A stretch of DNA of 64,000 bases from Burkholderiaceae bacterium. Its GTDB lineage: Bacteria > Pseudomonadota > Gammaproteobacteria > Burkholderiales > Burkholderiaceae_C. Below are positions 2,691 to 48,490 of the stretch, piece by piece. Below the pieces are notes generated by a model. The model was not told the DNA's origin. It made no database searches and saw only the letters and a list, made by a program, of their open reading frames with translations. Position 1 is the stretch's first letter. Every line of letters begins with the position of its first letter. Location: contig JAYPEA010000005.1 in NCBI GenBank assembly GCA_038125525.1, positions 2,207 to 66,206 on the forward strand, written 5' to 3'. A program made the translations under genes and the position numbers.

Positions 2691-3650
2691 ATGCAAGAGG
2701 CCGCTGCCCCGCCCCACTGGCGCACCGAGGGCCCCACCTGGCCACACCACGCGCGCAGCCGCTTTGTGGCTGCAGGCGGCATGGCTTGGCACGTGCAGCA
2801 CTGGCCCGAGCCCAATCGGCCCACGCCCAACCCACCCACACCAACGCGCGTGTTGCTGCTGCACGGCACCGGCGGCAGTACCCATTGCTGGCGTGGCGTG
2901 GCGCCGTGGTTGGCGCAACACGCCGAGGTGCTGGCGCTGGACTTACCCGGTCACGGCTTTAGCGCGGCACCGGCTAACCCACAAGGCATGAGCCTGCACG
3001 GCATGGCGCAGGGTGTGGCCGCGCTGCTGGCGGATTGGCCTTACACGCCCGACATGGTGGTGGGCCACTCGGCCGGCTGCGCCGTGGCGGTGCGCATGGC
3101 GCTAAACGGGCAACTGCCCAACACCCGGCTGCTGGTGGGCATTGGCGCGGCGCTGCTGCCCTGGCAAGGGTTGCCAGGCAAATGGTTTGGCCCATTGGCG
3201 CGCGGCCTGGCCAGCCTGGGGCCGGTGCCCAAATGGTTTGCGGGTTGGGCCAACAAGCCCGCCGTGCTGCAAAGCCTGGTGGACAGCACCGGCTCAACCT
3301 TGAGCGACGAATCGTTGGCCTTGTGGCAGCGGCTGGTGGCAAGGCCCGAGCACGCGCAAGCCACGCTGCGCATGATGGCCGAGTGGGACTTGCCCGCCCT
3401 GCAACACGACCTGCCCCACCTGGCCACGCCGCTGTGTTTGCTGCACGGCAGCCGCGACACCACCGTGCGCCCGAGTCAGTCGCACCGCGCCGCACAACAC
3501 GTAACACCCGCCGTGCGCGCGGGCGTACACGAGTGGCCCACGCTGGGGCACTTGGCACCCGAAGAGGCGCCCGAGCAAGTGGCGCAAAGCCTATGGGAGG
3601 TGTGGCAGGGGCGGCAGGGGTGGCAGCACGCCAACGCCCGCGGCGCTTAG
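2691..3650 (+). CDS. bchO: Alpha/beta hydrolase BchO (Mg-chelatase accessory)
   Basis: LLLHGTGGSTH, DLPGHGFS, GHSAG nucleophile elbow; bchI-D-O synteny. Confidence 0.88.
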   Translation: MQEAAAPPHWRTEGPTWPHHARSRFVAAGGMAWHVQHWPEPNRPTPNPPTPTRVLLLHGTGGSTHCWRGVAPWLAQHAEVLALDLPGHGFSAAPANPQGMSLHGMAQGVAALLADWPYTPDMVVGHSAGCAVAVRMALNGQLPNTRLLVGIGAALLPWQGLPGKWFGPLARGLASLGPVPKWFAGWANKPAVLQSLVDSTGSTLSDESLALWQRLVARPEHAQATLRMMAEWDLPALQHDLPHLATPLCLLHGSRDTTVRPSQSHRAAQHVTPAVRAGVHEWPTLGHLAPEEAPEQVAQSLWEVWQGRQGWQHANARGA

Positions 3651-4258
3651 CGCGGCAGCTGGGCCAGACGTTGCTGCACGGTTTGCGCCAGCGGCGCATC
3701 GGCCGGTAGCTGCTGCAGCGCGCGCTGCCAGTGGGCTCGGGCCTGCTGGGTTTGCTGCTGCTCAAGCGCGGCCATCCCCGCCAACACCAAAGCCTGCGCG
3801 TGATCGGGGCTGAGTTGCAGCGCGCGCTCAAGCCACCGCGCGGGTTCGCCCGCGAGCGAGCCGCCGCGCGCCATGGCGGTTACGTCGGCACGCATTACCC
3901 ACCAGTCGGCTTGGCTGGCATCGATGGCCACGGCCTTGGCCAAGGCTTCGGCGGCGTCGGCCCAGCGCTGCATGGCGGCGTACGATTTGGCCAGCATATG
4001 CCAGCCTTGGGCGTTGGTTTGACCGTCTGGGCCTTGCAGCTTGGCCTCTAGGCGTTGCACCATGGCTTGCACCAACGGGGTTTGGGTTACGTCGTTGGGT
4101 GGCGCAGCCTCGGCCGCTGCTGGCGCCGGTTGAGCGGGCGTGGCAACAGGCGGGCCGCCGGCCAGCAACCACGCCGGCTGCCCAAGCACGGCGTAAACGG
4201 CAACGGCCAGCGCGGCCACGCCCAGCCACACCGTCCAGCGTAAACCGCGCTCAGTCAT
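3647..4258 (-). CDS. ccmI: TPR-containing cytochrome c maturation chaperone, CcmI/CycH-like (short form)
   Basis: One N-terminal TM segment, then TPR-like repeats (GWHMLAKSY..., ERALQLSPDHAQALVLAG); ATGA-coupled to ccmH. Confidence 0.7.
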   Translation of the reverse strand: MTERGLRWTVWLGVAALAVAVYAVLGQPAWLLAGGPPVATPAQPAPAAAEAAPPNDVTQTPLVQAMVQRLEAKLQGPDGQTNAQGWHMLAKSYAAMQRWADAAEALAKAVAIDASQADWWVMRADVTAMARGGSLAGEPARWLERALQLSPDHAQALVLAGMAALEQQQTQQARAHWQRALQQLPADAPLAQTVQQRLAQLPR

Positions 4259-4662
4259 GACTTACCCGGCTGCGGCTTGGCCCGCGTGACGCGCCACCAG
4301 CCCAGCGCCGCGATCAGCAACAGCGCGGCTGGCAAAAACCACAGCGGCCACGTGCTGGGCTTGAGCGGCGGGCGGTAGCGCACGAAGTCGCCGTAGCGTT
4401 GCGTCATGTACTCAAGCACCTGCGCCTCGCTTTGGCCTTGGGCCAGCATGCGCCTAACCTGGTTGCGCAAGTCCACGGCCAACGGCGCTTGCGAGGCGGC
4501 AATGGTGTCGTTTTGGCACACCAGGCAACGCAGCTCGCTGGCCACGCGTTGCACCTGGTCCTCTAGCGTGGGGTTGGCACGCGCCAAATCGGCGTACCCC
4601 ATGGCCAAGCTCAACACCACGGCCCGTACGCCCAACCCGCGCATAAGACGCGGCCTAGCCAT
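4255..4662 (-). CDS. ccmH: Cytochrome c-type biogenesis protein CcmH
   Basis: LRCLVCQN motif, YGDFVRYRPP, C-terminal TM helix; start ATG 4662 overlaps the ccmG stop by 8 bp. Confidence 0.92.
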   Translation of the reverse strand: MARPRLMRGLGVRAVVLSLAMGYADLARANPTLEDQVQRVASELRCLVCQNDTIAASQAPLAVDLRNQVRRMLAQGQSEAQVLEYMTQRYGDFVRYRPPLKPSTWPLWFLPAALLLIAALGWWRVTRAKPQPGKS

Positions 4663-5197
4663 GGCGTTGCGCCAACAAGGGCAACAGCGTGGATTGCACC
4701 CATTGCGGCGTGACCACACCGGTGTGTTTGTGCCGCACGCGGCCTTGCGGGTCAATCACGTAGGTCTCGGGCACGCCGTACACGCCTAAGTCTATGCCCA
4801 CGCGGCCGTCCACGTCGTGCCATACGGTGTGGTACGGGTTGCCGCGCTGCGCCAGCCATTGTTGCGCGGCGGGGCTGGCGTCTTTGTAGTTCAGCCCCAC
4901 CAACGTAACGCGCTGGCTTTGCGCCAACTGCAGCAACACCGGATGCTCAACCGCGCACGGCGTGCACCACGAGGCCCACACGTTAAGCACCCACCACTGG
5001 CCGCGCCAGGCCTGTGAGCTAACCGCCGCGGCGGGCTTACCCAACGCAGGCAGCGCAAACGCCGGCAAGGGTTGGCCGATGAGTGGCGAGGGCACCTCGC
5101 GCGGGTTCAGCCTAAGCCCCACGCCCAAGGCCACGCACAGCAAGGCAAAGCCCGCCAGCGCCAGCCAAGGCCCCAGGCGGCGCGGTGCCCGTGTCAT
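4655..5197 (-). CDS. ccmG: Thiol:disulfide interchange protein CcmG/DsbE
   Basis: N-terminal TM anchor, LNVWASWCTPC thioredoxin motif, GVYGVPETY. Confidence 0.95.
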   Translation of the reverse strand: MTRAPRRLGPWLALAGFALLCVALGVGLRLNPREVPSPLIGQPLPAFALPALGKPAAAVSSQAWRGQWWVLNVWASWCTPCAVEHPVLLQLAQSQRVTLVGLNYKDASPAAQQWLAQRGNPYHTVWHDVDGRVGIDLGVYGVPETYVIDPQGRVRHKHTGVVTPQWVQSTLLPLLAQRHG

Positions 5198-7134
5198 GCG
5201 GCCTGCGCCGGCGGCAGCGCCGCGCGCCGGTCAAACGCCGCCATGAGGCCGCCCAAGGCCATCATCAAGCAGCCCAGCCATATCCAGTTCACCAGCGGCT
5301 TGTGGTGCACGCGAAAGGCAAAGGCGTCGTTGCCCAGCGATTCGCCCAGGGCCACGTAAACGTCGCGCCACAGGCTGCGGTCAATCGCCACCTCGGTCAT
5401 GGTTTGGCCGTTGGCCAGGTACAAGCGTCGCTCGGGCTCAAGCGTGGTGACCGTTTGGCCGTGTTGCTGCATGGGCAGACGGGCGCGTACCGCAAAGTAG
5501 TTGGGCCCGGGCGCCATGGTGACGCCGTCAAAGCGCAACTCAACGTTGCCCACGGCAATCGCCTGGCCCGGGCGCAGCCGCACGTCTTGCTCGTGCCCCC
5601 AGGTGGAGACCGCCGCCACGCCAAGGGCGAACACCGCAACACCCAAGTGCGCCAACCACATGCCGCCTTTGGCGCCGCGCAGCGCCCGCCAGCGCGCCGA
5701 GGCGGGCAAACGCTGGCGCCACCACTGCACCATGTGCTGCGCCACGCCAAACGTGAGCCACGCGGCCAAGGCCAACCCGCCCCACGTGGCCCACGACGCG
5801 CCCGGCACCCACCACACCACCGCCGTGGCCGCGCCCACGGCCAACCCGGCCACCAGCATCCACGCGCGCCAAGGCGCCCTGCCAGCGGCGCGGCGCCAAG
5901 CCAGCACCGGGCCGGGCACCATCAGCAACATCACCAGCAGCATCAAGGGCACAAACACGGCTTCAAAGTACGGCGGCCCCACCGACAACTTACCGAGCCC
6001 CATGGCATCAAGCAGCATGGGGTATAGCGTGCCCAGCAGCACACTGGCCGCGGCCACCATGAGCAGCAAGGTTTGGCCAAACAACAAACCCTCGCGCGAC
6101 CAGCCTTGAAAGCTTGCCCCCACGCCCACCGTGGGCGCACGCCAAGCGTAAAGCGCTAGCGCACCGCCCACCACCAGCGCCAAAAAAACCAAAATAAACA
6201 AACCGCGCCCGGGGTCTGAGGCGAACGCGTGCACCGAGCTGAGCACACCCGAGCGCACGATGAACGTGCCAAGCAACGCCAGCGCAAAGCCCAGCAGCGC
6301 CAGCAGCGCCGTCCATAGCCTGAAGCTGCCGCGCGCATCGGCCATGGCCGCGCTGTGCAACAACGCCGTGGCCACCAACCAGGGCATGAACGAGGCGTTT
6401 TCTACCGGGTCCCAAAACCACCAACCACCCCAGCCCAGTTCGTAGTACGCCCAAAAACTGCCCAAGGCAATGCCCACGGTTAAAAACGCCCAAGCCACCA
6501 GCGTCCACGGGCGTATGGCGCGCGCCCAGGCCGAGCCCAACTCGCCTTGCAGCAGCCCGGCCACGGTATAGGCAAAGGCCACCACCAAACCCACGTAACC
6601 CATGTACAGCAGCGGCGGATGCCACACCATGCCGGGGTCTTGCAGCAAGGGATTCATGCCTTGCCCGTCGGCCGGCACCGGCCAGGCGCGCAAAAACGGA
6701 TTGGACGTGAACAGCAAAAACGCCAAAAAGCCCACGCCAATAAGCCCCATTACGCCCAGCACGCGGGCGCGCTGCACGGCGCAAGCGCTGCGCGTGCGCC
6801 ATGCCACGGCCAACGTCCAACCAGCCAGCACCCACACCCACAGCAGCATGGAGCCCTCGTGGTTGCCCCACACCGCGGTGTAGCGGTACACCAGGGGCAG
6901 CGCCGAGTGGGCGTAACCGGCCACCAGCGCAACCGAGAAGTCGGTGTGCACAAACGCCCAGGTGAGCGCGCCAAACGCCAGCGTGACCGTGGCCGCTTGC
7001 ACTGCCACCAGACGCGGGGCAAAGCGCATCCACGCCGCATCGCCGCGCGCCGCACCACCCAAGCCAAGCACGGCCAGCGCCACGCTGGCAGCCAGTGCCA
7101 CGCTGAGGGCCAGATGGCCAAGCTCAACAATCAC
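5194..7134 (-). CDS. ccmF: Heme lyase CcmF
   Basis: MIVELGH start, [34 protein letters not shown] motifs; 646 aa polytopic membrane protein. Confidence 0.97.
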
Positions 7135-7592
7135 GGCTGCGACGCCACCTGCGTGCGCGTGGCTGCACCCGCGGCTTGCAGCGCCGCAGCGGCTTCGGGC
7201 GGCATGTAGTTTTCGTCGTGCTTGGCCAGCACTTGCTGCGCCACAAACCAGCCATCGGCAGCCAACGTGCCTTGCGCCACCACGCCTTTGCCCTCGCGAA
7301 ACAAGTCGGGCAACATACCGGCGTAACGCACCGGCACGTGGTGCGCGCCGTCGGTAACCACAAAACTCACCTGTAAGCCCGAGCCCGAGCCCGCACGCTG
7401 CACGCTGCCTTGCTGCACCAACCCGCCAACACGAAAGGCGCGTGTGGTGGGCGCTTGCTGCGCGGCCACTTGCGTGGGGCTATAAAAAAACACCAAGTTG
7501 CTCTCAAAGGCGCGCAACACCAAGGTGGCTGCCCCGCCCAGTGCCAACAACGCCGCGCCCAACCACAGCATGCGCCAACGCTTGGCCGTCAT
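7131..7592 (-). CDS. ccmE: Heme chaperone CcmE
   Basis: NLVFFYSP, Y[15 protein letters not shown], heme-binding LAKHDENY (HxxxY); ATG 7592 overlaps the ccmD stop. Confidence 0.96.
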
Positions 7593-7765
7593 GACGACTC
7601 CAGCCCGATGTCCCAGGCTTGGTCTTGCGCCGGGCGCTGCAGCGCGCGCCGCTGCCACGCCAGCACCATCCATTCGGCCAGCAGCACCAGCAGCGTCACG
7701 CCCACGGCGCCCCACACGTACCAACCCCGCCCGCCCATGCTGAACCACACTTCCAGCGTGCTCAT
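7589..7765 (-). CDS. ccmD: Heme exporter protein CcmD
   Basis: 58 aa, [13 protein letters not shown] plus TM helix plus basic tail; ATGA-coupled on both sides, between ccmC and ccmE. Confidence 0.85.
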
Positions 7766-8514
7766 GCTTGACTCTCCTGTTCGTTCAGCGCGCGCTGCGC
7801 CCATGTGGTGTGCCGCTCGCGGCGCAACAAAATCAATCGCAACCTCGCCAACACCGCCGCCAGCGTGTAACACCACGCCGCAGCCACCATGATGAGCATG
7901 GCGTGCAACATGGGCTCGGCCATGCGTGAACCGCTGGGCCCAATCGAGGCGCCCTGGTGCAAGGTGTTCCACCACACCACCGAAAAGTAAATCACCGGCA
8001 CATTGATGGCACCCACAATGGCCAACAAACTCGCCGCGCGGTCGGCGCGGTGCGCGTCTTCGATGCTGGCGTGCAGCGCCATGTAGCCCAGGTACAAAAA
8101 CAACAGCAACAACTCAGAGGTTAGGCGCGCGTCCCACACCCACCAGGTGCCCCAGGTGGGTTGGCCCCACAGCGCGCCGGTCCATAGCGCCACAAAGGTC
8201 ATGAGCGCGCCAGTGGGCGCCAAGGCCTGCGCCATCATGTGCGACAGGCGCGACTGCCAAATCAAACCCGCCGCTGCCCAGCCCGCCATGGCCAGGTAAA
8301 TCACCATGGACATCCACGCCGCGGGCACGTGCACAAACACAATGCGGTACACCTCGCCTTGTTGCGCGTCGGTTGGCGCTTGCCACAAGCCCAGGTAAAA
8401 GCCCCAGGCACCCAGCACCACGGCAGCGCCCAGCAACCACGGCTGCAAGGTTTGCGCCAAGCGGTAGCAGCGCGACGGCGCAGCAAAATAAAACCAGTTG
8501 ATACGGGTGCCCAT
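7762..8514 (-). CDS. ccmC: Heme ABC transporter permease CcmC
   Basis: HVPAAW, WWD domain [24 protein letters not shown]. Confidence 0.96.
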
Positions 8515-8516
8515 GC

Positions 8517-9233
8517 CTAGCCCTCCACCGCCATGCGTACCGCGCTGGCCACCGCCCACGGCAAGCCCACCACAGCCAACAACGCCATGGCCGCCAGCAG
8601 CGACAAGTGCGCCGCCACCACCTCGGGTGGCTGCCCCACGGCGCCCGCACCCAGCACCAACAAAGGCACCGTAAGCGGCAGCACCAACAAGGCCAACAAC
8701 ACCGCGCCACTGCGTACGCCCAGCACCAGCGCGGCGGCCACCGCGCCCAGCAAACACAACACCGGCAGCCCCAACAACAAGCCCGCCACCAACACCACCA
8801 GGGCCGAGGCCGAAAGCCCATACGGCACAGCCAACAACGGGCTGAGCGCCACCAGCGGCAGCAAAGCCAACGCGCCGTGCGTGGCCACCTTAACCAACAT
8901 CAACAACGCCAACGGGTGCGGCGACAACACCATTTGCTCCAAGGTGCCGTCTTGCCAATCGTCGTGAAACCAGCGCGGCAACGTGCCCAGCGTGGCCAAC
9001 ACGGCGGCCACCCAAATCACGCCCGGGCCCATGCGCTGCAGCAGCTGCGGCTCAGGCCCCACGGCCAGCGGAAACAACGCCGCCACCACCAAGAAAAAAC
9101 ACCACGCCGCGGCCAAATCGGCGCGTTGGCGCCACTGGCTGGCCACCGTGGCGCGCAACACCACGCCCAGGCTTACCCAGGCGCTGGCTAACTCGCGTGC
9201 GGGGGCCGCGCCCCAGGCCACCGACGCCGTCAT
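8517..9233 (-). CDS. ccmB: Heme exporter permease CcmB
   Basis: FPLAVGPEPQLL, DDWQDGTLEQ, LLVLPLTVPLLVLG; six-TM character; ATG overlaps the ccmA stop. Confidence 0.94.
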   Translation of the reverse strand: MTASVAWGAAPARELASAWVSLGVVLRATVASQWRQRADLAAAWCFFLVVAALFPLAVGPEPQLLQRMGPGVIWVAAVLATLGTLPRWFHDDWQDGTLEQMVLSPHPLALLMLVKVATHGALALLPLVALSPLLAVPYGLSASALVVLVAGLLLGLPVLCLLGAVAAALVLGVRSGAVLLALLVLPLTVPLLVLGAGAVGQPPEVVAAHLSLLAAMALLAVVGLPWAVASAVRMAVEG

Positions 9234-9847
9234 AGTGCCAACCGCCTCAGCCCGGCGTAGGCGTGGCCGGTTTGCCCATGCGCAGTAAACACCACGGCCC
9301 CACCACCGTGCACGTGGCGCTGCATGAGTTGTTGCAACCAACCGGTGGCGCGCTCGTCCAGCGCGACAAAGGGCTCGTCCAGCAGCCACAGCGCTGGCGC
9401 CCCGGGTAAGCCCAACCGGGCCAGCGCCGCCAAGCGGCGTTGCCCCTGCGACAAGCGTCCTACCGGCCGGCCGGCCACGGCGCTCAGGCCGCAGGCGTCC
9501 AAGGTGGCGTCCATGGCCTGCCGGTTAACCGCTTGCCCAGCCAGCGCGCAACCCAGGGTCAAATTGGCACGCGCATCAAGATTAGCTTTTTGTGCCGGCA
9601 CCGGCCCAATCCACGCCATGTGCTCGCGCATGGCGCGCCAGTTGTCACCCAACAACGGCTGGCCATGCCACAGCATGTGCCCCTGACCCAGCGGAAACAA
9701 ACCCGCCAAGGAGCGCAGCAACGTGGTTTTGCCCGCGCCGTTGGCCCCTTCAATCTGCCAGGTTTGCCCGCCCAGCACCTGCAAGCCCAGGCCACGCACC
9801 AACCAGCGGTGGCCGCGTTGCAGACCCACATCAATTAAAGCGAGCAT
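9230..9847 (-). CDS. ccmA: Heme ABC exporter ATP-binding protein CcmA
   Basis: Walker A GANGAGKTT, signature LSQGQRR, Walker B LWLLDEP; heads the ccm operon. Confidence 0.93.
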   Translation of the reverse strand: MLALIDVGLQRGHRWLVRGLGLQVLGGQTWQIEGANGAGKTTLLRSLAGLFPLGQGHMLWHGQPLLGDNWRAMREHMAWIGPVPAQKANLDARANLTLGCALAGQAVNRQAMDATLDACGLSAVAGRPVGRLSQGQRRLAALARLGLPGAPALWLLDEPFVALDERATGWLQQLMQRHVHGGGAVVFTAHGQTGHAYAGLRRLAL

Positions 9848-9862
9848 GGAATCACCGGTCAG

Positions 9863-9880
9863 TGTCAACTAATAGTGACA
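9863..9880. promoter_or_regulatory. PpsR/CrtJ box, 15 bp upstream of the ccmA start
   Basis: TGTCAACTAATAGTGACA, an exact TGT-N12-ACA palindrome. Confidence 0.8.
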
Positions 9881-9918
9881 CTTGTAGCACATTCATATAA
9901 ATGACACAAGCGAACGAC

Positions 9919-9951
9919 TTGACATTCTAAGGTGTCGTGTTAAATTGACAC
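9919..9951. promoter_or_regulatory. Putative overlapping divergent sigma70 promoters (crtE rightward, ccmA leftward)
   Basis: Plus strand: TTGACA(9919-24)-N16-TAAATT(9941-46). Minus strand: GTGTCA(9951-46)-N16-TAGAAT(9929-24). Motif match only. Confidence 0.45.
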
Positions 9952-9976
9952 TACGTGATGTCACACTCTTTTTACA
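9933..9976. promoter_or_regulatory. Tandem PpsR/CrtJ boxes 8 bp apart, upstream of crtE
   Basis: TGTCGTGTTAAATTGACA (9933-9950) and TGTCACACTCTTTTTACA (9959-9976), both exact TGT-N12-ACA with the classic 8-bp spacing. Confidence 0.88.
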
Positions 9977-9997
9977 ACTGTACCGATCGGGGGCCCC

Positions 9998-10888
9998 ATG
10001 GACATGCGCAAACGGATTGAGCAGGCGCTGGCGCGCCAGCTGGCCCCAGCACCCCACCACGGGGCGCCACCCAAGTTGCTGCAGGCCATGCGGCATGCGG
10101 TGTTTCCCGGCGGGGCGCGCATACGGCCCCAGCTTTGCTTGGCGGTGGCGCAGGCCTGCGCCTGCGATGCCCCGGGCTTGGCCTTGGGCGGCGCGGTGGG
10201 GGTCGAGCTGTTGCACTGCGCCTCGTTGGTGCACGACGACATGCCCTGCTTTGATGACGCCGACACCCGACGCGGCCGCCCCAGCGTGCAGCGCCAATAC
10301 GGTGAGCCGCTGGCCCTGCTCACAGGGGATGCCTTGATTGTGCTGGCTTTTGAGGTGCTTACTGACCCCGATGTTGGCCATGCCGAGCGCGCCTTGGCCA
10401 TGCAACGCACGCTGGCGCAAGCGGCCGGCTCGCCCGCGGGTGTGGTGGCTGGTCAGGCCTGGGAGTGCGAAACGGAAGTGGATTTGTCTCAGTACCAGCG
10501 CGCCAAAACCGGGGCGCTATTTGTGGCCGCCACCACGTTGGGCGCGCAAGCCGCCGGCGCCCCGCCCGAGCCCTGGCAAGCGCTGGGTGAGCAGCTGGGC
10601 GAGGCGTATCAGGTGGCCGACGACATTCGCGACGTGGTGGGCGACGCGGCCGAGTTGGGCAAACCGGTGGGCCAAGACCAAGCCCACGACCGGCCCAACG
10701 CGATGCAAACGCTGGGCTTGTCGGGGGCGCTTAAGCGCTTTGAATCGCTCATGCAAGACGCCGTGGCCGCCGTGCCCGCCTGCCCGCAGCAAAGCGCCAT
10801 GCGCGAGCTGGTGCGGCACGAGGCATTGCGCTTGGTGCCACAGCTGTCGATTGCCTGGCGCCACCCCAACCCTCGCGCCACCGCGTAG
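9998..10888 (+). CDS. crtE: Geranylgeranyl diphosphate synthase
   Basis: FPGGARIRPQL, ASLVHDDMPCFDDADTRRG (FARM), QVADDIRD (SARM). Confidence 0.96.
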   Translation: MDMRKRIEQALARQLAPAPHHGAPPKLLQAMRHAVFPGGARIRPQLCLAVAQACACDAPGLALGGAVGVELLHCASLVHDDMPCFDDADTRRGRPSVQRQYGEPLALLTGDALIVLAFEVLTDPDVGHAERALAMQRTLAQAAGSPAGVVAGQAWECETEVDLSQYQRAKTGALFVAATTLGAQAAGAPPEPWQALGEQLGEAYQVADDIRDVVGDAAELGKPVGQDQAHDRPNAMQTLGLSGALKRFESLMQDAVAAVPACPQQSAMRELVRHEALRLVPQLSIAWRHPNPRATA

Positions 10889-12105: not shown

Positions 12106-12149
12106 GGTAAATTTTAATTGACACTTCATAATGTCAACAAATAAATACA
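12106..12149. promoter_or_regulatory. bchC promoter with tandem PpsR boxes 8 bp apart
   Basis: GGTAAATTTTAATTGACA (12106-23, one mismatch) and TGTCAACAAATAAATACA (12132-49, exact); TTGACA at 12118-23. Confidence 0.88.
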
Positions 12150-19790: not shown

Positions 19791-20816
19791 ATGTTGCAAT
19801 CATCCACACATTGGTTGGCGCGTGGTGCCAAGCTCGCGGCGTTGGCCTCACTGGTCACACTTGCCGCCTGCGAGCGCCCCCCCATGCAAAGCGAACAAAA
19901 CGGCTTTCGTGGCACGGGCATGGTGCAAGTGGTCAACCCACGCGCGCTGGAGGACAAGGTTGCCTTAAACGCTGTGCCCATGGCCACGCCGCAGGCTCCG
20001 GCTGAGGGGCCCAAGGCCTCGCAGATTTACCAAAACGTGCAAGTGCTGGGCGACTTGAGCGTGGGCCAGTTCACCCGCTTAATGGTGGCCATTACCAGCT
20101 GGATTGCACCACAAGAGGGCTGTAACTACTGCCACAACCCGGCCAATTTGGCCGAGGACAGCAAGTACACCAAGGTGGTGTCGCGGCGCATGATTGAGAT
20201 GACGCAAAACATCAACGCCAACTGGAAGACCCACGTGGCCGACACCGGGGTGACGTGCTACACCTGTCACCGGGGCCAGGCGGTGCCGTCTCAGGTTTGG
20301 TTTAAAGCCGACCAAGAGCCCAAAGGCGCAAACTTTATTGGCGACAAAGCTGGGCAAAACAGTCCGGCAGCCAGCGTCAAGTTGGCCTCGTTGCCCAACG
20401 ACCCGTTTACGCCGTTTTTGCTGGGCGATCATGCCATTCGCGTGAATGGCACCACCGCCTTGCCCACGGGCAACCGCAGCTCAATTAAGCAAACCGAGTG
20501 GACGTATGGGTTGATGGTGCACATGTCGGCCTCGCTGGGGGTGAACTGCACGTACTGCCACAACACGCGAGCGTTTTCGAGCTGGGAGGACGCCGCGCCA
20601 CAACGCGTGAAGGCTTGGCACGGCATTCGCATGGCGCGCGACGTGAACAATCAATACATCGCGCCGCTCACCGAGGTGTTTCCGGCCAACCGCAAGGGCG
20701 TGTTGGGCGACTTGGCCAAGGTCAATTGCGCCACCTGCCATCAGGGCGTGAACAAGCCGTTGTTGGGCGCCTCTATGCTTAAAGACTACCCCTCGCTGGC
20801 CAGCGGGGCCAAGTAA
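19791..20816 (+). CDS. pufC: RC-bound tetraheme cytochrome c subunit
   Basis: Lipobox-like LAAC/ERPP; four CxxCH motifs (CNYCH, CYTCH, CTYCH, CATCH). Confidence 0.98.
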   Translation: MLQSSTHWLARGAKLAALASLVTLAACERPPMQSEQNGFRGTGMVQVVNPRALEDKVALNAVPMATPQAPAEGPKASQIYQNVQVLGDLSVGQFTRLMVAITSWIAPQEGCNYCHNPANLAEDSKYTKVVSRRMIEMTQNINANWKTHVADTGVTCYTCHRGQAVPSQVWFKADQEPKGANFIGDKAGQNSPAASVKLASLPNDPFTPFLLGDHAIRVNGTTALPTGNRSSIKQTEWTYGLMVHMSASLGVNCTYCHNTRAFSSWEDAAPQRVKAWHGIRMARDVNNQYIAPLTEVFPANRKGVLGDLAKVNCATCHQGVNKPLLGASMLKDYPSLASGAK

Positions 20817-40385: not shown

Positions 40386-40419
40386 TGTCAACTTTTTATG
40401 ACGTCAATTATTATTTACA
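40386..40419. promoter_or_regulatory. Two degenerate PpsR boxes in the bchF/aerR divergent region
   Basis: TGTCAACTTTTTATGACG (40386-403) and CGTCAATTATTATTTACA (40402-419), one mismatch each, overlapping by 2 bp; minus-strand TTGACA-N17-TAAATT points at bchF. Confidence 0.7.
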
Positions 40420-40562: not shown

Positions 40563-41366
40563 ATGCCCACCTCACGACCATCGCACGATGCGGGCAGCGG
40601 GCAATCCCACGTCCCTAGGGAGTTACTGCGTCAAGCCATCACGCACCGCGTGGTGCCGGCGTTGCTGGGGCGGGCGGCCAATGGTGACAAGGCCCGCGTC
40701 CTACCCAGCGAGTCCTCGGTGTTGGCTCTGGCCCAGCACATCTTGGGTGAATCCATCGAGCCCGCCCGCCAACTGATGCGCGGGCAGCTAAGCGCGGGCG
40801 TCAGCACAGAAGACCTCTACCTGCACCTGTTGGCGCCAGCTGCTCGCGTACTGGGGCGACACTGGGAGAGTGACGCCTGCGACTTTGTTGAGGTGACGTG
40901 GGGCATGGGCCAACTGCACCAGCTGCTGCGCGAGCACCCGCTAAGCCGCCCCGCTGCTGGCACCGCCGCTGTGGGTCAGGTGCTGCTGTGTCCCTTACCG
41001 GGCGAGCAACACACCTTTGGCTTGGCCATGGTGGCCGAGTTTTTGCTGCAAGCCGGCTGGCTGGTGCAACGCCAGCAGTTTGCCAGTCAGGCCGAGGCTG
41101 TGGTGTGGATCAAACAACACCACGTGCACGTGGCGGCCTTGAGCGTGGGCCACACCGGCAGCGCCGCCGCTTTGGCCGAACTCACCCGTGCCCTGCGCCG
41201 GGCCAGTGCCAACCCCAGCGTGGCCCTGCTCGCCGGCGGCGCCGGCCTAAACGCCAGCCAAACACCCGCAACCACTCTGGGGCTGGACGCCGTAGTCGAA
41301 GCCGCACCCGACGTCCCGCGTTTGGCGGCACAATACCTCCCACCTAACCGAATTGTCAAAAGTTAA
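40563..41366 (+). CDS. aerR: Cobalamin-binding antirepressor AerR/PpaA
   Basis: RHWESDACDF, B12-binding EQHTFG (ExHxxG); directly upstream of ppsR. Confidence 0.88.
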   Translation: MPTSRPSHDAGSGQSHVPRELLRQAITHRVVPALLGRAANGDKARVLPSESSVLALAQHILGESIEPARQLMRGQLSAGVSTEDLYLHLLAPAARVLGRHWESDACDFVEVTWGMGQLHQLLREHPLSRPAAGTAAVGQVLLCPLPGEQHTFGLAMVAEFLLQAGWLVQRQQFASQAEAVVWIKQHHVHVAALSVGHTGSAAALAELTRALRRASANPSVALLAGGAGLNASQTPATTLGLDAVVEAAPDVPRLAAQYLPPNRIVKS

Positions 41367-41380
41367 TTGTTTTGCCAGAC

Positions 41381-42823
41381 ATGACCGCGCGACAACCCCA
41401 ACCCAGTTTGAACTTCAGTCTGGCTGAACGCCACTTGGGCGGCTTGCACGCGTCCTCGGCGGCTTCGTTGCTTGCCGCCAGCGGCGACTTGGTGCTGCTG
41501 CTCGCCGCCAACGGTGACATTCTCGACCTCGCCTGCAGCCGTGAAGACCTGGCCAGTTGGAACTTAAGCGACTGGATAGGCCAGCCCTGGGAGCGCACCG
41601 TCACCGGTGAGAGCGTGCCCAAAATTCAAGCCATGCTGCAAGACGCCCAACGCGGCCAACCCGCGCAGTCGCGGCAAGTCAACCACCCCAGTCCCATGGG
41701 CAGCGACCTGCCAGTTGCCTACCGCGTGGTGCCGTTAGGCGATCGCGAGCACGCCGCGCAGTTTGCCGCCATTGGGCGAGACCTGCGCGACACCACACGC
41801 ATGCAGCAACGGCTGGTGGCCGCGCAAACCCAAATGGAGCGCGACCACTGGCAGGCGCAAGCCATTCAAACCCGCGCCCAAGCCATGATTGAGCTCAGCG
41901 GCGAGGCGCTGCTGGTGCTCGAGGCCGACCAATGGAGCCTGGTGCAAGCCAACACCGCAGCGCACCAGCTGCTGGGCCCCACCCTTGAGCAATCGGGCTG
42001 GACGCTGCTGGGGCAGCTGGGCCCAGCGGCCCGGCAAACCCTTATGCAACACGCCGCGCAGTTGCAATCAGGCGCCGGCCCACGCGTGGCGCACTTTAAT
42101 CTCGATCACCACGGCAACGTGTGGCAAGCCGCCTTGCAGCGCGCTGACGTGGGCGCCAGCAGCCAATGGCTGCTGCGCTTATCTGGCCACCCCACCGCCA
42201 CCGGCGAAACCGACCAAACCTGGGCGCCCATGGCCACCAGCGCGCCCGATGCGCTGCTGATCACCAACCCGTTGGGCATCATCGAGCACGCCAACCCCAG
42301 TTTTTTACGCGCCGTGCAGTGCACCAGCCCCGAGCAGGTGCTGGGTACCTCGCTTGAGACCTGGCTGGGGCGGCAAGAAGTCGATCAAAGCGTGCTGCTG
42401 TCCAACCTCAAACAACACGGCAGCGTGCGCTTGTTTGCCACCGAACTGCATGGCGCCCTGGGCACCAGCACAGAGGTAGAAATCTCCGCAGCCGCCATTG
42501 GCGAGAACCGCCCGGCTCGCTATGGCTTTGTGCTGCGCGACGTCAGCCGCCGCCTGGACGAAACCCCGAAAGAATTGCCGCGCACCGCCAGCGAAATGAC
42601 CGAACTCGTGGGGCGCCTGCCGCTCAAAGACATCGTGCGTGAAACCACCGACCTCATCGAGCAGTTGTGCATTCAGGCCGCGCTCGAGCTCACCGGCGAC
42701 AACCGCGCCTCAGCGGCCGAAATGCTCGGCCTGTCCCGACAAAGCCTCTACATCAAGCTGCGCCGCTTTCAACTGGGCGACGGCGTGGACGACACCACCG
42801 TGAAGACTGAAAGTCAAACCTAG
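41381..42823 (+). CDS. ppsR: Photosynthesis gene repressor PpsR/CrtJ
   Basis: PAS-type repeats, LVGRLPLKDIVRETTD.IE..CI..AL, Fis-type HTH NRASAAEMLGLSRQSLYIKLRR. Confidence 0.95.
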   Translation: MTARQPQPSLNFSLAERHLGGLHASSAASLLAASGDLVLLLAANGDILDLACSREDLASWNLSDWIGQPWERTVTGESVPKIQAMLQDAQRGQPAQSRQVNHPSPMGSDLPVAYRVVPLGDREHAAQFAAIGRDLRDTTRMQQRLVAAQTQMERDHWQAQAIQTRAQAMIELSGEALLVLEADQWSLVQANTAAHQLLGPTLEQSGWTLLGQLGPAARQTLMQHAAQLQSGAGPRVAHFNLDHHGNVWQAALQRADVGASSQWLLRLSGHPTATGETDQTWAPMATSAPDALLITNPLGIIEHANPSFLRAVQCTSPEQVLGTSLETWLGRQEVDQSVLLSNLKQHGSVRLFATELHGALGTSTEVEISAAAIGENRPARYGFVLRDVSRRLDETPKELPRTASEMTELVGRLPLKDIVRETTDLIEQLCIQAALELTGDNRASAAEMLGLSRQSLYIKLRRFQLGDGVDDTTVKTESQT

Positions 42824-42836
42824 TTGATTTTTTGAG

Positions 42837-42877
42837 TGTAAATATAAATTGACACACCCTGGCCCGCGCCACACAAT
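42837..42877 (+). promoter_or_regulatory. bchG promoter with PpsR box
   Basis: TGTAAATATAAATTGACA (42837-54, exact TGT-N12-ACA); TTGACA-N17-CACAAT ends 6 nt before the ATG. Confidence 0.82.
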
Positions 42878-45149: not shown

Positions 45150-46336
45150 ACCCCGAGCGCCCCATTTTTGACGCCGTGGTTGTCGGCGGCGGCCCCGCCG
45201 GCGCCACCGCCGCACAAACACTTGCCCAAGCCGGTCACCGCGTTTTGCTGCTGGACCGAGGTGGACGCATCAAACCCTGCGGCGGTGCCATTCCGCCGCG
45301 TTTAATCCGCGACTTCGCGATACCCGAGCACATGCTGGTGGCGCGTGCACGCTGCGCCCGCATGGTTGCACCCAGCCGCAAGCACGTGGATATTCCTATA
45401 GACAACGGCTTTGTTGGCATGGTCGATCGCGAACACTTTGACGAATGGCTGCGCCAGCGTGCTGCCCAGGCGGGCGCGCAGCGCGCCACCGGCACCTTTG
45501 TTGGCATTGACCGCAGCACGCCCGGTCAACCGGTGGTGCGCTACCGCTTGGCCGATGGCAGCATGGGTGAGGCGCAAACCCGCGTTGTGGTTGGTGCCGA
45601 TGGCGCACGCTCGGCCGTGGCCAAACAAAATATCGCCCACGCCGAGCGTATGCCCTGCGTGTTTGCGTATCACGAAATCCTGCGCACCCCCAGCCAAGCG
45701 CCCGCTGGCTACCACCCCGAACGCTGCGACGTGGTGTACCAAGGCCATATCTCGCCGGACTTTTACGGCTGGGTGTTTCCGCACGGCCACACCATGAGCG
45801 TGGGCACCGGCAGCGCCAACAAAGGGTTTTCGCTGCGCGACGCAGTGGCCACGCTACGCGCCCAAAACGGCCTGCAACACGCCACCACTGTGCGCCGTGA
45901 GGGTGCACCCATTCCCATGAAGCCGTTGCCCCGATGGGACAATGGCCGCGACGTGGTGCTCGCCGGCGACGCCGCCGGTGTGGTGGCGCCGGCCTCTGGC
46001 GAAGGCATTTACTACGCCATGCTGGGCGGCCAATTGGCCGCCGAGGCTGCCCATGCGTACGTGCGTGGCGGCAACCCTGCCGCACTGCGCCAGGCACGTA
46101 AAAAGTTCATGCGCGCCCACGGCAAAATTTTCTGGGTGCTGGGTATCATGCAAGCGTTTTGGTACCGCAACAACGCACGCCGAGAAAGGTTTGTCAAAAT
46201 TTGCGAAGATCATGACGTGCAGCAAATTACCTTTGACGCCTACATGAACAAACGCTTGGTGCGCCGCCAACCCATGGCGCACATCAAAATCTTCTTTAAA
46301 GACTTGGCCCACCTGCTTGGTTTGGCCCGCGTATGA
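45146..46336 (+). CDS. bchP: Geranylgeranyl reductase
   Basis: VVVGGGPAG, KPCGGAIP, YGWVFP, GDAAGVVAPASGEGIYYA. Confidence 0.96.
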   Translation: MNPERPIFDAVVVGGGPAGATAAQTLAQAGHRVLLLDRGGRIKPCGGAIPPRLIRDFAIPEHMLVARARCARMVAPSRKHVDIPIDNGFVGMVDREHFDEWLRQRAAQAGAQRATGTFVGIDRSTPGQPVVRYRLADGSMGEAQTRVVVGADGARSAVAKQNIAHAERMPCVFAYHEILRTPSQAPAGYHPERCDVVYQGHISPDFYGWVFPHGHTMSVGTGSANKGFSLRDAVATLRAQNGLQHATTVRREGAPIPMKPLPRWDNGRDVVLAGDAAGVVAPASGEGIYYAMLGGQLAAEAAHAYVRGGNPAALRQARKKFMRAHGKIFWVLGIMQAFWYRNNARRERFVKICEDHDVQQITFDAYMNKRLVRRQPMAHIKIFFKDLAHLLGLARV

Positions 46337-46812
46337 CGCACCCAGCACGCCACTGGTGGCTGGGTGCCGCCTGGGCGCTGGGCGTGGCCGCCTTGGGCGG
46401 GGCGCTCACTACCCTAGACGCTTGGTACGCCGGTTTGCAACAGCCGCCGTGGAAACCAGCCGACGCCTGGTTTGGCCCCGTTTGGACCACCATTTTTGCC
46501 CTGTGCGTGGTGGCTGGCGTGCACGCGTGGCGTGGTGCGCCAAACATGGCGGCGCAGCGCGGCGTGTTGCGCGCCTACGCCATGAACAGCGTGGCCAACG
46601 TGGCGTGGAGTGCCTTGTTTTTTTATGCCCAACGACCCGATTGGGCGCTGGCCGAGGTGGGGGTGCTGTGGGCCTCGGTGCTGCACCTGTGGTGGGTCAC
46701 ACGGCAAAACCACCGCCGCGCGGCGTGGTGCTTGGTGCCCTACTGGCTATGGGTGACTTTCGCCGCGGCGCTCAATGCCGCGGTGGTCAACGCCAACGCC
46801 CCGTTTGCTTAA
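46333..46812 (+). CDS. tspO: Tryptophan-rich sensory protein TspO/CrtK
   Basis: WYAGLQQPPWKPADAWFGPVWT, LVPYWLWVTFAAALN; ATGA-coupled to bchP. Confidence 0.93.
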   Translation: MTHPARHWWLGAAWALGVAALGGALTTLDAWYAGLQQPPWKPADAWFGPVWTTIFALCVVAGVHAWRGAPNMAAQRGVLRAYAMNSVANVAWSALFFYAQRPDWALAEVGVLWASVLHLWWVTRQNHRRAAWCLVPYWLWVTFAAALNAAVVNANAPFA

Positions 46813-46816
46813 TGTC

Positions 46817-46841
46817 CTGCAGCCACACGGGGCGTGGCTTG
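46817..46841. terminator. Possible weak hairpin between the convergent tspO and HiPIP genes
   Basis: GCAGCCAC...GTGGCTTGC imperfect inverted repeat; no clear U-tract. Confidence 0.25.
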
Positions 46842-46849
46842 CGCGCGCT

Positions 46850-47161
46850 TTAGGCTTTTTTCACCCACGCACTGCACCAGCCATTGGCCGTCACTTGTTT
46901 GCCCGGAAACAACGGGCAAGCGCCCGCTTTGCTGCCCGCAGCGCCCTGATACAACTGGCAGTTTGCGCATTTTTGCGTGGCTTGATGCTTGGCGTACTTG
47001 GTGTTGTCTACCTTGGTGGTGTCGGCTTTGTAGCCCAAACCCAACGCGGTGGGCTCGGTCTCCGAAACCATGGGTGCCGCCTGCGCCACCCCGATGCCGC
47101 ACAGCGCGGCGCCGCCTACGGCAACTTGCATCATGAACACACGGCGTGGGGTTTGCTTCAT
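46850..47161 (-). CDS. High-potential iron-sulfur protein (HiPIP), Tat-exported
   Basis: Twin-arginine TPRRVF signal with AQA cleavage; LGYKAD, C-x2-C-x13-C-x13-C (CANC...ACPLFPGK.V...GWCSAW); RBS GGAG. Confidence 0.93.
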   Translation of the reverse strand: MKQTPRRVFMMQVAVGGAALCGIGVAQAAPMVSETEPTALGLGYKADTTKVDNTKYAKHQATQKCANCQLYQGAAGSKAGACPLFPGKQVTANGWCSAWVKKA

Positions 47162-47212
47162 AAGAATCTCCAAAACAGGTAAGCGTGAAGCGCCGCATTA
47201 TATGATTCGCCC

Positions 47213-48490
47213 ATGACCCCCCACGTTTCCCAAACATCGGCAACGCCCCCTCCTGCGGTTGCCTCCGATTCGTATCGCATGACGGCAGCCGAGCGGCGTG
47301 CGAGCTTCTCACTCAGCGGGCTTTATGCGTTACGCATGCTTGGCCTATTTATTGTGCTGCCCGTGTTTGCGCTGCAAGCCGCAAACTACCCCGGTGGCAA
47401 CGACCCGGCCATGGTGGGCCTGGCCATGGGAGCCTATGGGCTTACCCAGGCATGCCTGCACTTGGTCTTTGGTGCGGCGTCTGACCGCTGGGGCCGAAAG
47501 CGGGTGATTGTGGGCGGCTTATTGATTTTTATTGCGGGCAGTTTGGTCGCGGCCATGGCACAAAGCGTCACTGGTCTCATCGTGGGTCGCATGCTGCAGG
47601 GCGCGGGCGCGGTCTCGGCCGTTATCAGCGCGCTGCTGGCCGACCAAACCCGCCCCGAGGTACGCACCAAAGCGTTGGCCATGGTGGGCGCCAGCATTGG
47701 GCTGATGTTTGCTTTGTCCTTGGTGCTGGCGCCACCGCTGGCCGCGGTTGCCGGTTTGCCTGGCTTGTTCGTGCTCACCGCCGCGCTCGCCGTGGTGGGT
47801 ATTTGGTTGCTTCTCAAACGCGTCCCGCCCGAGCCGTCGCGCCAAGCCTCCCACGCAAGCGCCGGTATGCGCGCCTTGCTTACGCACGGGCCCACGCTTC
47901 GCCTTAACGCCGGGGTGTTCATCATGCACGCCATGTTGCTGGCGCTATGGGTGGCCGTGCCCGGCATGCTGGTTCAAGCCGGGGTCGCACCGGCGGCACA
48001 TTGGCAGGTGTATCTGCCAGCCATGGCGGCATCGTTTGGCGTCATGGCGGTCACGCTGTTTCCCTTAGAGCGGCGCGGCTACACCCGAGCGGTATTTTTG
48101 TGCGCTATTGGCGTGGTGGCGCTGGTCTTGCTTGGCTTGGCCTGGGCCGCTTCGGCGGGGGTGGGCGCCGTCACGCTTGGCATGTTGTTGTTTGCCTTTT
48201 TTTGTTGCTCCAACATTCTCGAGGCCTGCCAGCCCAGCATTGCCTCGCGCGCCGCACCGCCCCATGCCCGTGGCGCCGCCATGGGTTTTTACAACACCTT
48301 GCAGTCGTTGGGGTTCTTTGCCGGGGGCGCCGTGGGCGGTTTGCTGATGCGGCAGTTGGGCGCGGTGGGGCTGTTTGTTACGTTAGCCGGCTTTACCCTG
48401 CTGTGGCTGCTGTTGGCGTGGCCCATGGCACCCCTGGGGGCCCGGGGCGAGGTGCAAGACGCAGCCACCGCACCAGCAACCGGCGCCTAG
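47213..48490 (+). CDS. MFS transporter (YajR-like)
   Basis: YALRMLGLFIVLPV, ASDRWGRKRV, GRMLQGAGA; ~12 TM segments. Confidence 0.88.
   Translation: MTPHVSQTSATPPPAVASDSYRMTAAERRASFSLSGLYALRMLGLFIVLPVFALQAANYPGGNDPAMVGLAMGAYGLTQACLHLVFGAASDRWGRKRVIVGGLLIFIAGSLVAAMAQSVTGLIVGRMLQGAGAVSAVISALLADQTRPEVRTKALAMVGASIGLMFALSLVLAPPLAAVAGLPGLFVLTAALAVVGIWLLLKRVPPEPSRQASHASAGMRALLTHGPTLRLNAGVFIMHAMLLALWVAVPGMLVQAGVAPAAHWQVYLPAMAASFGVMAVTLFPLERRGYTRAVFLCAIGVVALVLLGLAWAASAGVGAVTLGMLLFAFFCCSNILEACQPSIASRAAPPHARGAAMGFYNTLQSLGFFAGGAVGGLLMRQLGAVGLFVTLAGFTLLWLLLAWPMAPLGARGEVQDAATAPATGA

What the first reader, a model, noticed from the sequence alone, without database searches (positions are those of the whole stretch)
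9848..9997. ccmA and crtE share a 150-bp divergent promoter with three perfect PpsR boxes, so heme attachment may belong to the photosynthesis regulon
Seen: three exact TGT-N12-ACA palindromes at 9863-80, 9933-50 and 9959-76, the last two 8 bp apart. One box is only 15 bp from the ccmA ATG, on the ccm side. A minus-strand TAGAAT (9929-24) overlaps the plus-strand TTGACA (9919-24), suggesting interlocked promoters. Known: PpsR/CrtJ represses bch/crt/puc promoters through paired boxes, including the divergent crtD/crtE promoter of Rhodobacter capsulatus. Inference: ccm has taken the divergent slot and is redox/light-regulated by PpsR-AerR. That would be odd for a housekeeping maturation system needed for respiration, and it supports a dedicated role.
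Basis: partly seen in the sequence, partly recalled or inferred. Interest (0 to 1): 0.72.

Follow-up and report, generated by a model that had tools for sequence, protein, structure and literature searches.

The report
PpsR-gated cytochrome c maturation operon
A complete haem-attachment (System I ccm) operon sits inside the photosynthesis gene cluster of a small coastal betaproteobacterium, behind its own promoter carrying a binding site for the photosynthesis repressor PpsR. The genome also holds a second (System II) pathway elsewhere, so the cell probably runs one haem-attachment line specifically with its photosystem.

Summary
Three exact TGT-N12-ACA palindromes lie in the 150-bp ccmA|crtE spacer. 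This is the only such triplet in the 1.87-Mb genome (shuffle P about 7e-4).

1. The genome also has a complete System II (ResB/CcsB).
2. In its genus (RS62/BAL58), System I ccm was found only in genomes that carry the photosynthesis gene cluster (PGC), and it lies inside that cluster.
3. The layout bchO>, <ccmI..A | crtE> recurs in three other genera.
4. Box 1 belongs to ccm, not crtE. It directly abuts a promoter conserved across four genera (TTGTGT, 17 bp, TGnTAYAAG, then the box). One of these is a genus where ccmA faces crtI instead of crtE. A fifth genus keeps the box but only part of the promoter.
5. The ccmA-proximal box is present in the five genera that also have System II. It is missing in the two genera where ccm is the only system.

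PpsR binding, the transcription starts and the redox/light response are untested. No paper found in the searched library links ccm to PpsR or the PGC.

The parts
3647..9847 (-). Complete System I operon ccmABCDEFGHI. Gene coordinates: ccmA 9230-9847, ccmB 8517-9233, ccmC 7762-8514, ccmD 7589-7765, ccmE 7131-7592, ccmF 5194-7134, ccmG/dsbE 4655-5197, ccmH 4255-4662, ccmI-like TPR 3647-4258.
   Evidence: NCBIfam and Pfam matches. Catalytic motifs are intact: Walker A, CcmE HDENY, CcmG CTPC, CcmH LRCLVC, and the WWD motifs of CcmC and CcmF. ccmD was found by frame reading. Four-nucleotide ATGA overlaps at A/B, C/D and D/E indicate translational coupling.
9863..9880 (.). Box 1, a perfect PpsR-type palindrome TGTCA-N8-TGACA. 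It is predicted to span about -6 to +12 of the ccm promoter.
   Evidence: It is one of only two 10/10 sites in the genome. It is conserved in genera g1, g157 and g186. An equivalent box precedes ccmA in g103 and g212.
9881..9889 (-). Predicted extended -10 element of the ccm promoter. It reads TGC TACAAG on the ccmA-reading strand and directly abuts box 1.
   Evidence: Conserved as TGnTA(C/T)AAG in G000, G008, G007, G321, G172 and G201 and in G227. It is unique in the genome. The transcription start at about 9874 is inferred, not measured.
9904..9909 (-). Predicted -35 element of the ccm promoter. It reads TTGTGT on the ccmA-reading strand, 17 bp upstream of the -10.
   Evidence: The hexamer and the 17-bp spacing are the same in g1, g157 and g212. 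In g186 the hexamer is TTGTTC.
9919..9946 (+). Predicted crtE promoter: TTGACA (9919-24), 16 bp, TAAATT (9941-46), with TG upstream of the -10.
   Evidence: Promoter scan, 10 of 12 matches. The TTGACA-N8-box 2 layout is conserved in g1, g157 and g186.
9924..9951 (-). It is present but not conserved.
   Evidence: scores it 9 of 12. The TAGAAT hexamer is absent in G321 and G172.
9933..9950 (.). Box 2, a PpsR palindrome over the crtE -10 (about -20 to -3).
   Evidence: It is almost invariant, spacer included, across g1, g157 and g186.
9959..9976 (.). Box 3, a PpsR palindrome 8 bp after box 2 (about +7 to +24 of crtE).
   Evidence: The half-sites are conserved in G007 and G201. The site is degenerate but in register in g157.
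9998..10888 (+). crtE (geranylgeranyl diphosphate synthase type), the first gene of crtEF-bchCXYZ-puf.
40563..42823 (+). AerR-like B12-binding protein (40563-41366) and PpsR (41372-42823), the presumed trans-acting regulators.
   Evidence: TIGR02040 at 397.7 bits, cut-off 275.4. PF02310 B12-binding domain.
19791..20816 (+). pufC, the tetrahaem reaction-centre cytochrome. It has four CXXCH motifs and a lipobox. No other c-type cytochrome match fell on this contig.
   Evidence: NF040706 at 500 bits. Motifs. All other cytochrome c matches in the genome lie on other contigs.

Best explanation
The 150-bp spacer holds two back-to-back sigma-70-type promoters, each with its own PpsR operator.

- The ccm promoter is TTGTGT, 17 bp, TGcTACAAG. 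Its predicted start is near 9874 and box 1 lies directly over that start site.
- The crtE promoter is TTGACA, 16 bp, TAAATT. Its predicted start is near 9953. Box 2 covers its -10 and box 3 lies just downstream.

When PpsR, a tetramer in relatives, occupies the boxes, both operons are shut. When PpsR is relieved, presumably through the neighbouring AerR-like B12 protein, the nine-gene System I ccm operon comes on together with crtEF-bchCXYZ-puf.

The genome also carries a complete System II (ResB/CcsB), which all photosynthesis-less congeners use alone. System I here is therefore an accessory haem-attachment line tied to photosystem production. Its most likely purpose is to supply the tetrahaem PufC and the other c-type carriers when haem demand jumps and protoporphyrin is diverted to bacteriochlorophyll.

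Shown: sequence features, their conservation, gene content and phyletic pattern.
Inferred: PpsR binding, transcription starts, co-regulation and the client cytochromes.
For: 1. Box statistics: three boxes in 150 bp has P about 7e-4, and this is the only such cluster in the genome. Box 1 is one of two perfect TGTCA-N8-TGACA sites genome-wide; the other sits 10 bp from the bchI ATG.

2. Regulators are present: PpsR and an AerR-like protein.

3. Phylogenetic footprint:
- Within the genus (G007 and G008), the boxes and hexamers are conserved while the other spacer positions diverge.
- Across genera g1, g157 and g186 (CcmA only 42-47% identical), the module -35 / 17 bp / TGnTAYAAG / box 1 is kept at fixed spacing.
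- The same module precedes ccmA in G227, where the divergent partner is crtI. A perfect box lies 3 bp from the ccmA ATG in G118, also opposite crtI.

4. Control set: 77 ccmA upstream regions outside this clade have no box cluster.

5. A second pathway exists: ResB and CcsB on contig C33.

6. Genus pattern:
- ResB was found in 14 of 17 genomes.
- CcmF was found in 8 genomes. Seven of these have BchY and the eighth is only 75% complete.
- All 9 genomes without BchY lack CcmF.

7. Layout and phylogeny:
- The layout bchO>, <ccm | crtE> occurs in five more genomes of three genera.
- The window's CcmF nests inside a 13-member clade of which 12 are linked to the PGC.
- A second, separate lineage (LSUCC0117 type) has dxs-hemA-ccm inside the PGC behind a conserved promoter with a 9/10 box. 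One origin for all PGC-linked ccm operons is rejected (p-AU 2e-42).

8. Box versus System II: the ccmA-proximal box is present in the five genera with ResB (g1, g157, g186, g103, g212). It is absent in the two without ResB (g168, g9).

9. All Ccm catalytic motifs are intact.
Against: - No measurement of binding, transcription starts or expression exists for this organism or any relative.
- The proposed -35 (TTGTGT) and -10 (TACAAG) are only 3/6 and 4/6 matches to consensus, and the automatic scan did not call this promoter.
- Known PpsR/CrtJ repression normally uses two palindromes. Box 1 is single, 52 bp from box 2, and in G118 and G227 it has no nearby partner.
- In R. gelatinosus, 8-bp-spaced sites were bound without redox dependence (PMC4452267), so the signal sensed is uncertain.
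- In relatives without System II (g168, g9; R. gelatinosus ccmF mutant, PMC4600104), a PGC-adjacent ccm is the general pathway. Linkage alone therefore does not prove a dedicated role.
- PufC has only canonical CXXCH motifs, so there is no obvious reason why System II could not mature it.
- The box/ResB correlation rests on 7 genera that are not independent.
Confidence: 0.7

Rival explanations
1. Box 1 is only an auxiliary operator for crtE, acting as a looping partner of boxes 2 and 3. The ccm operon is transcribed constitutively from an unrecognised promoter.
For: CrtJ is known to act cooperatively through distant palindromes: spacings of 76 and 240 bp in R. capsulatus are cited in PMC4452267. 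Box 1 lies only 52 bp from box 2. No transcription start has been mapped.
Against: The box-plus-promoter module stays with ccmA when the neighbour is crtI rather than crtE (G227 and G118). The box-1 to box-2 distance varies (70, 85 and 166 bp between box starts), while the box-1 to -10 junction is invariant. Genomes with the same ccmA|crtE layout but no System II keep the crtE boxes and lack box 1.
Confidence: 0.08
2. The boxes are real and ccm is co-regulated, but ccm has no photosystem-specific job. On this view it is a general second maturation system that travels with the PGC as a passenger of horizontal transfer.
For: The PGC and ccm are gained and lost together as one block in the genus. 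In R. gelatinosus, System I matures all c-type cytochromes (PMC4600104). PufC carries only standard CXXCH motifs.
Against: ccm is linked to the PGC in at least two independent CcmF lineages with different architectures. The operon is complete with all motifs intact in a streamlined 1.87-Mb genome. The PpsR box occurs only where System II is also present, which suggests selection on its regulation.
Confidence: 0.17
3. The three palindromes are chance products of an AT-rich spacer, or they bind some other regulator.
For: The window-wide count of TGT-N12-ACA is at chance level. AT-rich spacers do raise the local expectation.
Against: The local shuffle P is 0.0007. The cluster is unique in the genome. 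The best sites are concentrated at PGC operon starts. Half-sites are conserved across genera while the spacers vary.
Confidence: 0.03

Closest known systems
CrtJ/PpsR operators of Rhodobacter capsulatus (bchC promoter; divergent crtD|crtE region)
   Same: TGT-N12-ACA palindromes occur in pairs 8 bp apart and overlap core promoter elements. An AerR-type B12 protein is encoded next to the repressor (PMC5362033).
   Different: At R. capsulatus bchC the two palindromes cover -47..-30 and -21..-4. Here the crtE pair lies at about -20..-3 and +7..+24. A third, single palindrome sits on a separate promoter for a ccm operon. The term ccm does not occur in the main text of that ChIP-seq/RNA-seq study.
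Rubrivivax gelatinosus PpsR at the crtI and pucB promoters
   Same: Same bacterial order. PpsR is a tetramer binding two TGT-N12-ACA sites 8 or 9 bp apart, and crtI is a target (PMC4452267). In G118 and G227, ccmA is divergent from crtI.
   Different: There, 8-bp-spaced sites showed no redox dependence. ccm was not examined as a target. In R. gelatinosus a ccmF mutant loses all c-type cytochromes, so System I is general there (PMC4600104).
Client-linked cytochrome c maturation genes: E. coli nap-ccm operon; NrfEFG and Shewanella SirEFG haem lyases
   Same: Maturation genes are placed under the regulation of one respiratory or energy module. E. coli ccm is expressed only anaerobically (PMC10937671 abstract). 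Dedicated lyases are described in PMC6976685.
   Different: NrfEFG and SirEFG exist for non-standard haem motifs. Here the CcmF scores below the NrfE-specific cut-off (673 against 927 bits) and the candidate client PufC has standard CXXCH motifs. Here the whole nine-gene System I is duplicated in function by a System II in the same cell.
Known non-pigment members of the PpsR/CrtJ regulon (cbb3 oxidase ccoNOQP; ubiquinol oxidase; hem genes)
   Same: There is precedent that PpsR/CrtJ reaches beyond pigment genes into cytochrome and tetrapyrrole supply (PMC5362033). hemC and hemE in R. sphaeroides are cited from my own knowledge and were not checked here.
   Different: Those targets are enzymes or oxidase subunits. 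A cytochrome c maturation machine as a target was not found in the searched literature.

Membership tests
PpsR/CrtJ operator | Palindrome TGT-N12-ACA | tested here: met
   Three exact sites. They score 10/10, 9/10 and 9/10 against TGTCA-N8-TGACA.
PpsR/CrtJ operator | Two palindromes acting together (8-9 bp apart, or distant) | tested here: inconclusive
   Boxes 2 and 3 are 8 bp apart, so the feature is met for crtE. Box 1 is single, 52 bp from box 2, and has no partner in G118 or G227.
PpsR/CrtJ operator | Overlap with core promoter elements | tested here: met
   Box 2 lies over the predicted crtE -10. Box 1 abuts the conserved extended -10 of ccm. The promoters are predicted, not mapped.
PpsR/CrtJ operator | Cognate PpsR, and an anti-repressor, encoded in the genome | tested here: met
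   TIGR02040 at 397.7 bits. A B12-binding protein lies immediately upstream.
PpsR/CrtJ operator | Physical binding and PpsR-dependent transcription | not testable with these tools
   No RNA run holding the locus was listed.
System I cytochrome c maturation (CcmABCDEFGHI) | All components present with catalytic motifs | tested here: met
Dedicated haem lyase of the NrfEFG type | NrfE-specific sequence, and a client with a non-CXXCH site | tested here: not met
   TIGR03145 scores 673 bits against a 927-bit cut-off. PufC has four standard CXXCH motifs.
Accessory (second) maturation system in one genome | An independent complete pathway elsewhere in the genome | tested here: met
   ResB scores 420.6 bits and CcsB 252 bits, both on contig C33. 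Congeners without the PGC have only ResB.

The most novel reading that the evidence does not exclude
Two cytochrome c maturation systems divide the work within one cell. System II serves respiration constitutively. A PpsR-gated System I, carried inside the photosynthesis gene cluster, serves the photosystem (PufC and its partners) or protects c-haem supply while protoporphyrin is drawn into bacteriochlorophyll. This arrangement arose at least twice in the family. The PpsR operator on ccm is kept only where System II frees ccm from housekeeping duty.
Probability: 0.45. Interest if true: 0.75.

Novelty: new variant of a known kind. Interest (0 to 1): 0.62.

Why it matters
It would add haem attachment to the PpsR photosynthesis regulon. 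It would also give a natural case in which Systems I and II coexist with different regulation. That bears on the old question of why two bacterial cytochrome c maturation systems persist and what each is better at.

It defines a testable cis-module: promoter plus single palindrome, conserved across five genera. It also points to a cultured relative, LSUCC0117 of the BAL58/RS62 group, in which the idea can be tested.

For genome annotation, ccm genes inside photosynthesis clusters of Burkholderiales aerobic phototrophs should be treated as cluster members, not as boundaries.

Tried and rejected
- RNA evidence: no RNA holder was listed for ccmA-crtE. One metatranscriptome has short contigs on ccmB, ccmA and crtF only. 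These are contigs, possibly DNA carry-over, and show no starts. They are not used as evidence.
It is demoted.
- The first CcmF tree placed the window's clade alone on a long branch and suggested three origins. With more PGC-linked sequences it nests inside a PGC-linked clade. The claim is reduced to at least two origins. The groups were named after seeing trees, so the AU p-values are indicative only.
- A 654-aa ORF between crtE and ccmA in G024 has no family match and is probably not a gene. The real gene there is pucC.
- A 9/10 site outside the cluster (contig C9, position 33217) lies upstream of an ORF in an operon that includes an ABC-type ATPase match. It has a GC-rich spacer and was judged chance.
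- Most other Comamonadaceae-type ccm loci fetched by CcmA similarity have no PGC genes within 6 kb.
- Complex prediction, structure prediction and the large protein searches were not used. They would not bear on a regulatory claim.

Full report
**Observation**

The spacer between ccmA (ATG at 9847, minus strand) and crtE (ATG at 9998) is 150 bp, at about 40% GC in a roughly 66% GC context. It holds exact TGT-N12-ACA palindromes at 9863-80, 9933-50 and 9959-76. Boxes 2 and 3 are 8 bp apart, and box 1 is 15 bp from the ccmA ATG.

The window-wide number of such palindromes is at chance level (10 against 12.7 expected). The local cluster is not:
- Three or more boxes occurred in 0.07% of 200,000 dinucleotide-preserving shuffles of the spacer.
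- No other 150-bp stretch of the 1.87-Mb genome has three.
- Against the longer consensus TGTCA-N8-TGACA the boxes score 10, 9 and 9 out of 10.
- Only 17 sites in the genome reach 9. Five are in the photosynthesis cluster part of the window and a sixth is 10 bp before bchI, just left of the window.

**Genes**

The minus-strand genes are a complete System I operon, ccmABCDEFGHI (3647-9847).
- All hallmark motifs are intact: Walker A, CcmE HDENY, CcmG CTPC, CcmH LRCLVC, and the WWD motifs of CcmC and CcmF.
- Several 4-nt start/stop overlaps indicate translational coupling.

To the left lie bchI-bchD-bchO. To the right lie crtEF-bchCXYZ, puf including the tetrahaem pufC, the crt genes, puh-acsF, bchMLHBNF, then an AerR-like B12-binding gene, ppsR, bchG, pucC, bchP and tspO. 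The ccm operon is therefore inside the photosynthesis gene cluster (PGC).

Each box-bearing operon start in this cluster has a box no more than 30 bp from its first ATG: bchI 10, ccmA 15, crtE 21, bchC 1, bchG 29 and bchF 29.

**A second maturation pathway**

The genome (95.7% complete) has only this one CcmF and one CcmA. It also has a complete System II, ResB plus CcsB, on contig C33, just downstream of a dihaem cytochrome gene.

Counts in the same genus (17 genomes including this one):

| Feature | Genomes |
|---|---|
| ResB found | 14 |
| CcmF found | 8 |
| CcmF genomes that also have BchY | 7 (the eighth is only 75% complete) |
| Genomes without BchY that lack CcmF | 9 of 9 |

The three genomes where ResB was not found are 90% complete or less. 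One congener is the cultured strain LSUCC0117 of the BAL58 group, GTDB genus RS62 (PMC10652963).

System II is therefore the core pathway of the genus. System I comes and goes with the PGC.

**The arrangement in relatives**

- G007 and G008, two further species of the genus with CcmF 86% and 98% identical to the window's, have the same layout.
- In a sample of 301 genomes of the family, 45 have BchY and 116 have CcmF. In 10 genomes the two lie on one contig within 50 kb.
- Five genomes of three other genera (G321 and G172; G201; G183 and G330) have exactly bchO>, <ccmI..A | crtE> crtF bchCXY.
- G118 and G227 have crtB<crtI< | >ccmA.
- G024 has crtE< | >pucC, then ccm.
- A different group in the window's own genus (LSUCC0117, G002, G015) has bchD<bchI<hemE< | >dxs>hemA>ccmA..I.

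In a CcmF tree the window's sequences sit on a long branch. They nest, with 99 and 97 SH-aLRT support, inside a 13-member clade of which 12 are PGC-linked. The LSUCC0117 group is elsewhere in the tree. A single clade of all PGC-linked ccm operons is rejected (p-AU 2e-42). The groups were defined after seeing trees, so this is indicative only. Linkage of ccm to the PGC thus arose at least twice.

**The spacer compared**

Within the genus, the half-sites of all three boxes and the promoter hexamers are conserved, while the other spacer positions vary.

Across genera g1, g157 and g186, where CcmA is only 42-47% identical, the strand reading towards ccmA keeps four elements at fixed spacing:
- TTGTGT (TTGTTC in g186),
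- a 17-bp variable spacer ending in TG,
- TA(C/T)AAG,
- and immediately the palindrome.

The same module (TTGTGT, 17 bp, TGaTATAAG, box) precedes ccmA in G227, where the opposite gene is crtI. G118 has a perfect box 3 bp before the ccmA ATG. In the window this string is unique in the genome.

I read it as an extended -10 promoter:
- -35 at 9909-9904 and -10 at 9886-9881, on the minus strand;
- predicted start near 9874, giving a 27-nt leader;
- box 1 at about -6 to +12.

The crtE side is TTGACA (9919-24), 16 bp, TAAATT (9941-46), with box 2 over the -10 and box 3 at about +7 to +24. This layout is conserved in g1, g157 and g186.

In the LSUCC0117 group, the hemE|dxs spacer has a conserved block with TGTCAATTTAACTTGACG (9/10). 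This is nearly the reverse complement of the window's box 2, and it overlaps a TTGACG..TAAATT promoter.

Among 77 ccmA upstream regions outside the window's clade, none has a box cluster.

**Box against System II**

| Genera | ResB | ccmA-proximal box |
|---|---|---|
| g1, g157, g186, g103, g212 | found | present |
| g168, g9 | not found (94-100% complete genomes) | absent |

These are. g168 has the identical ccmA|crtE layout and keeps the crtE boxes, yet lacks box 1.

With seven related genera this is suggestive, not proof. It is what one expects if ccm can be placed under a photosynthesis repressor only when respiration does not depend on it. In Rubrivivax gelatinosus, of the same order, a ccmF mutant lacks all c-type cytochromes including PufC, CcoO and CcoP (PMC4600104).

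**Mechanism proposed, and its limits**

PpsR is a tetramer in R. gelatinosus, where it binds pairs of TGT-N12-ACA sites (PMC4452267). In R. capsulatus the bchC palindromes cover the -35 and the -10, and AerR extends the CrtJ footprint (PMC5362033). I propose that PpsR represses both divergent promoters here, so that System I is made together with the photosystem.

Untested points:
- binding, transcription starts and the signal sensed. The 8-bp-spaced sites in R. gelatinosus were redox-independent in vitro;
- whether a single palindrome suffices;
- which cytochromes depend on System I. PufC has standard CXXCH motifs, so any specificity would be quantitative (capacity, haem affinity) rather than chemical. 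That System I works at lower haem than System II is recalled from the literature and was not checked here.

**Novelty**

Searches of the held library found no paper joining PpsR or the photosynthesis gene cluster with ccm genes. Subscription papers are not covered. I rate it a new variant of a known kind: a known operator type and a known machine, in a new and conserved combination.

Noticed in passing
contig C5 positions 2099-2116 (107 bp left of window position 1): The only other perfect TGTCA-N8-TGACA site in the genome lies 10 bp upstream of the bchI ATG, right after the stop of the preceding gene. It marks the left edge of the photosynthesis cluster. A run of N (withheld bases) lies about 150 bp further left.
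   Followed up: partly
window 12106-12149; 40386-40419; 42837-42854: There are further PpsR-type sites. A pair in 26-bp register ends 1 bp before the bchC ATG. Two sites that overlap by 2 bp (16-bp offset, unusual) lie between bchF and the AerR-like gene. A single site lies 29 bp before bchG.
   Followed up: partly
window 40563-41366: The gene upstream of ppsR has a B12-binding domain (PF02310) but matches no NCBIfam model. It is a divergent AerR/PpaA-type protein.
   Followed up: no
window 5194-7134 (ccmF) and the whole operon: The CcmF of this clade (G000, G008, G007) sits on a long stem branch (0.79 in the first tree) with deviant amino-acid composition. This suggests accelerated evolution after it became a second, accessory system.
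   Followed up: partly
L049 = RFXW01000002.1 (G007): The public record is titled 'Candidatus Fonsibacter lacus' (an alphaproteobacterium). Yet the contig carries a betaproteobacterial-type PGC 80-95% identical in protein to this window, and the genome is placed in the window's genus. The name looks wrong.
   Followed up: no
L035 2988-7346 (LSUCC0117, G003) and L036 (G015): In the other PGC type of the same genus, hemE, dxs and hemA (general tetrapyrrole and isoprenoid supply genes) lie inside the cluster. hemA ends 4 bp before ccmA, so precursor supply and haem attachment form one predicted operon.
   Followed up: partly
window 46333-48490 and beyond: tspO (46333-46812) and an MFS transporter (47213-48490) close the cluster. 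From about 48.5 kb onward the genes are ordinary housekeeping: rsuA, scoAB, a peroxidase-related gene and gcvT.
   Followed up: no
(runs X1-X19): Near-identical DNA is held by estuary, lagoon, mangrove and coastal seawater metagenomes from about ten studies. This fits the brackish BAL58/RS62 habitat. One run carries a strain variant (87 differences over 2.1 kb) spanning the whole ccmA|crtE spacer.
   Followed up: no
contig C9 position 33217 (L135 2718-2735): A 9/10 PpsR-like site with a GC-rich spacer lies 24 bp upstream of the first ORF of an operon that includes an ABC-type ATPase match, outside the cluster. It is probably chance.
   Followed up: partly
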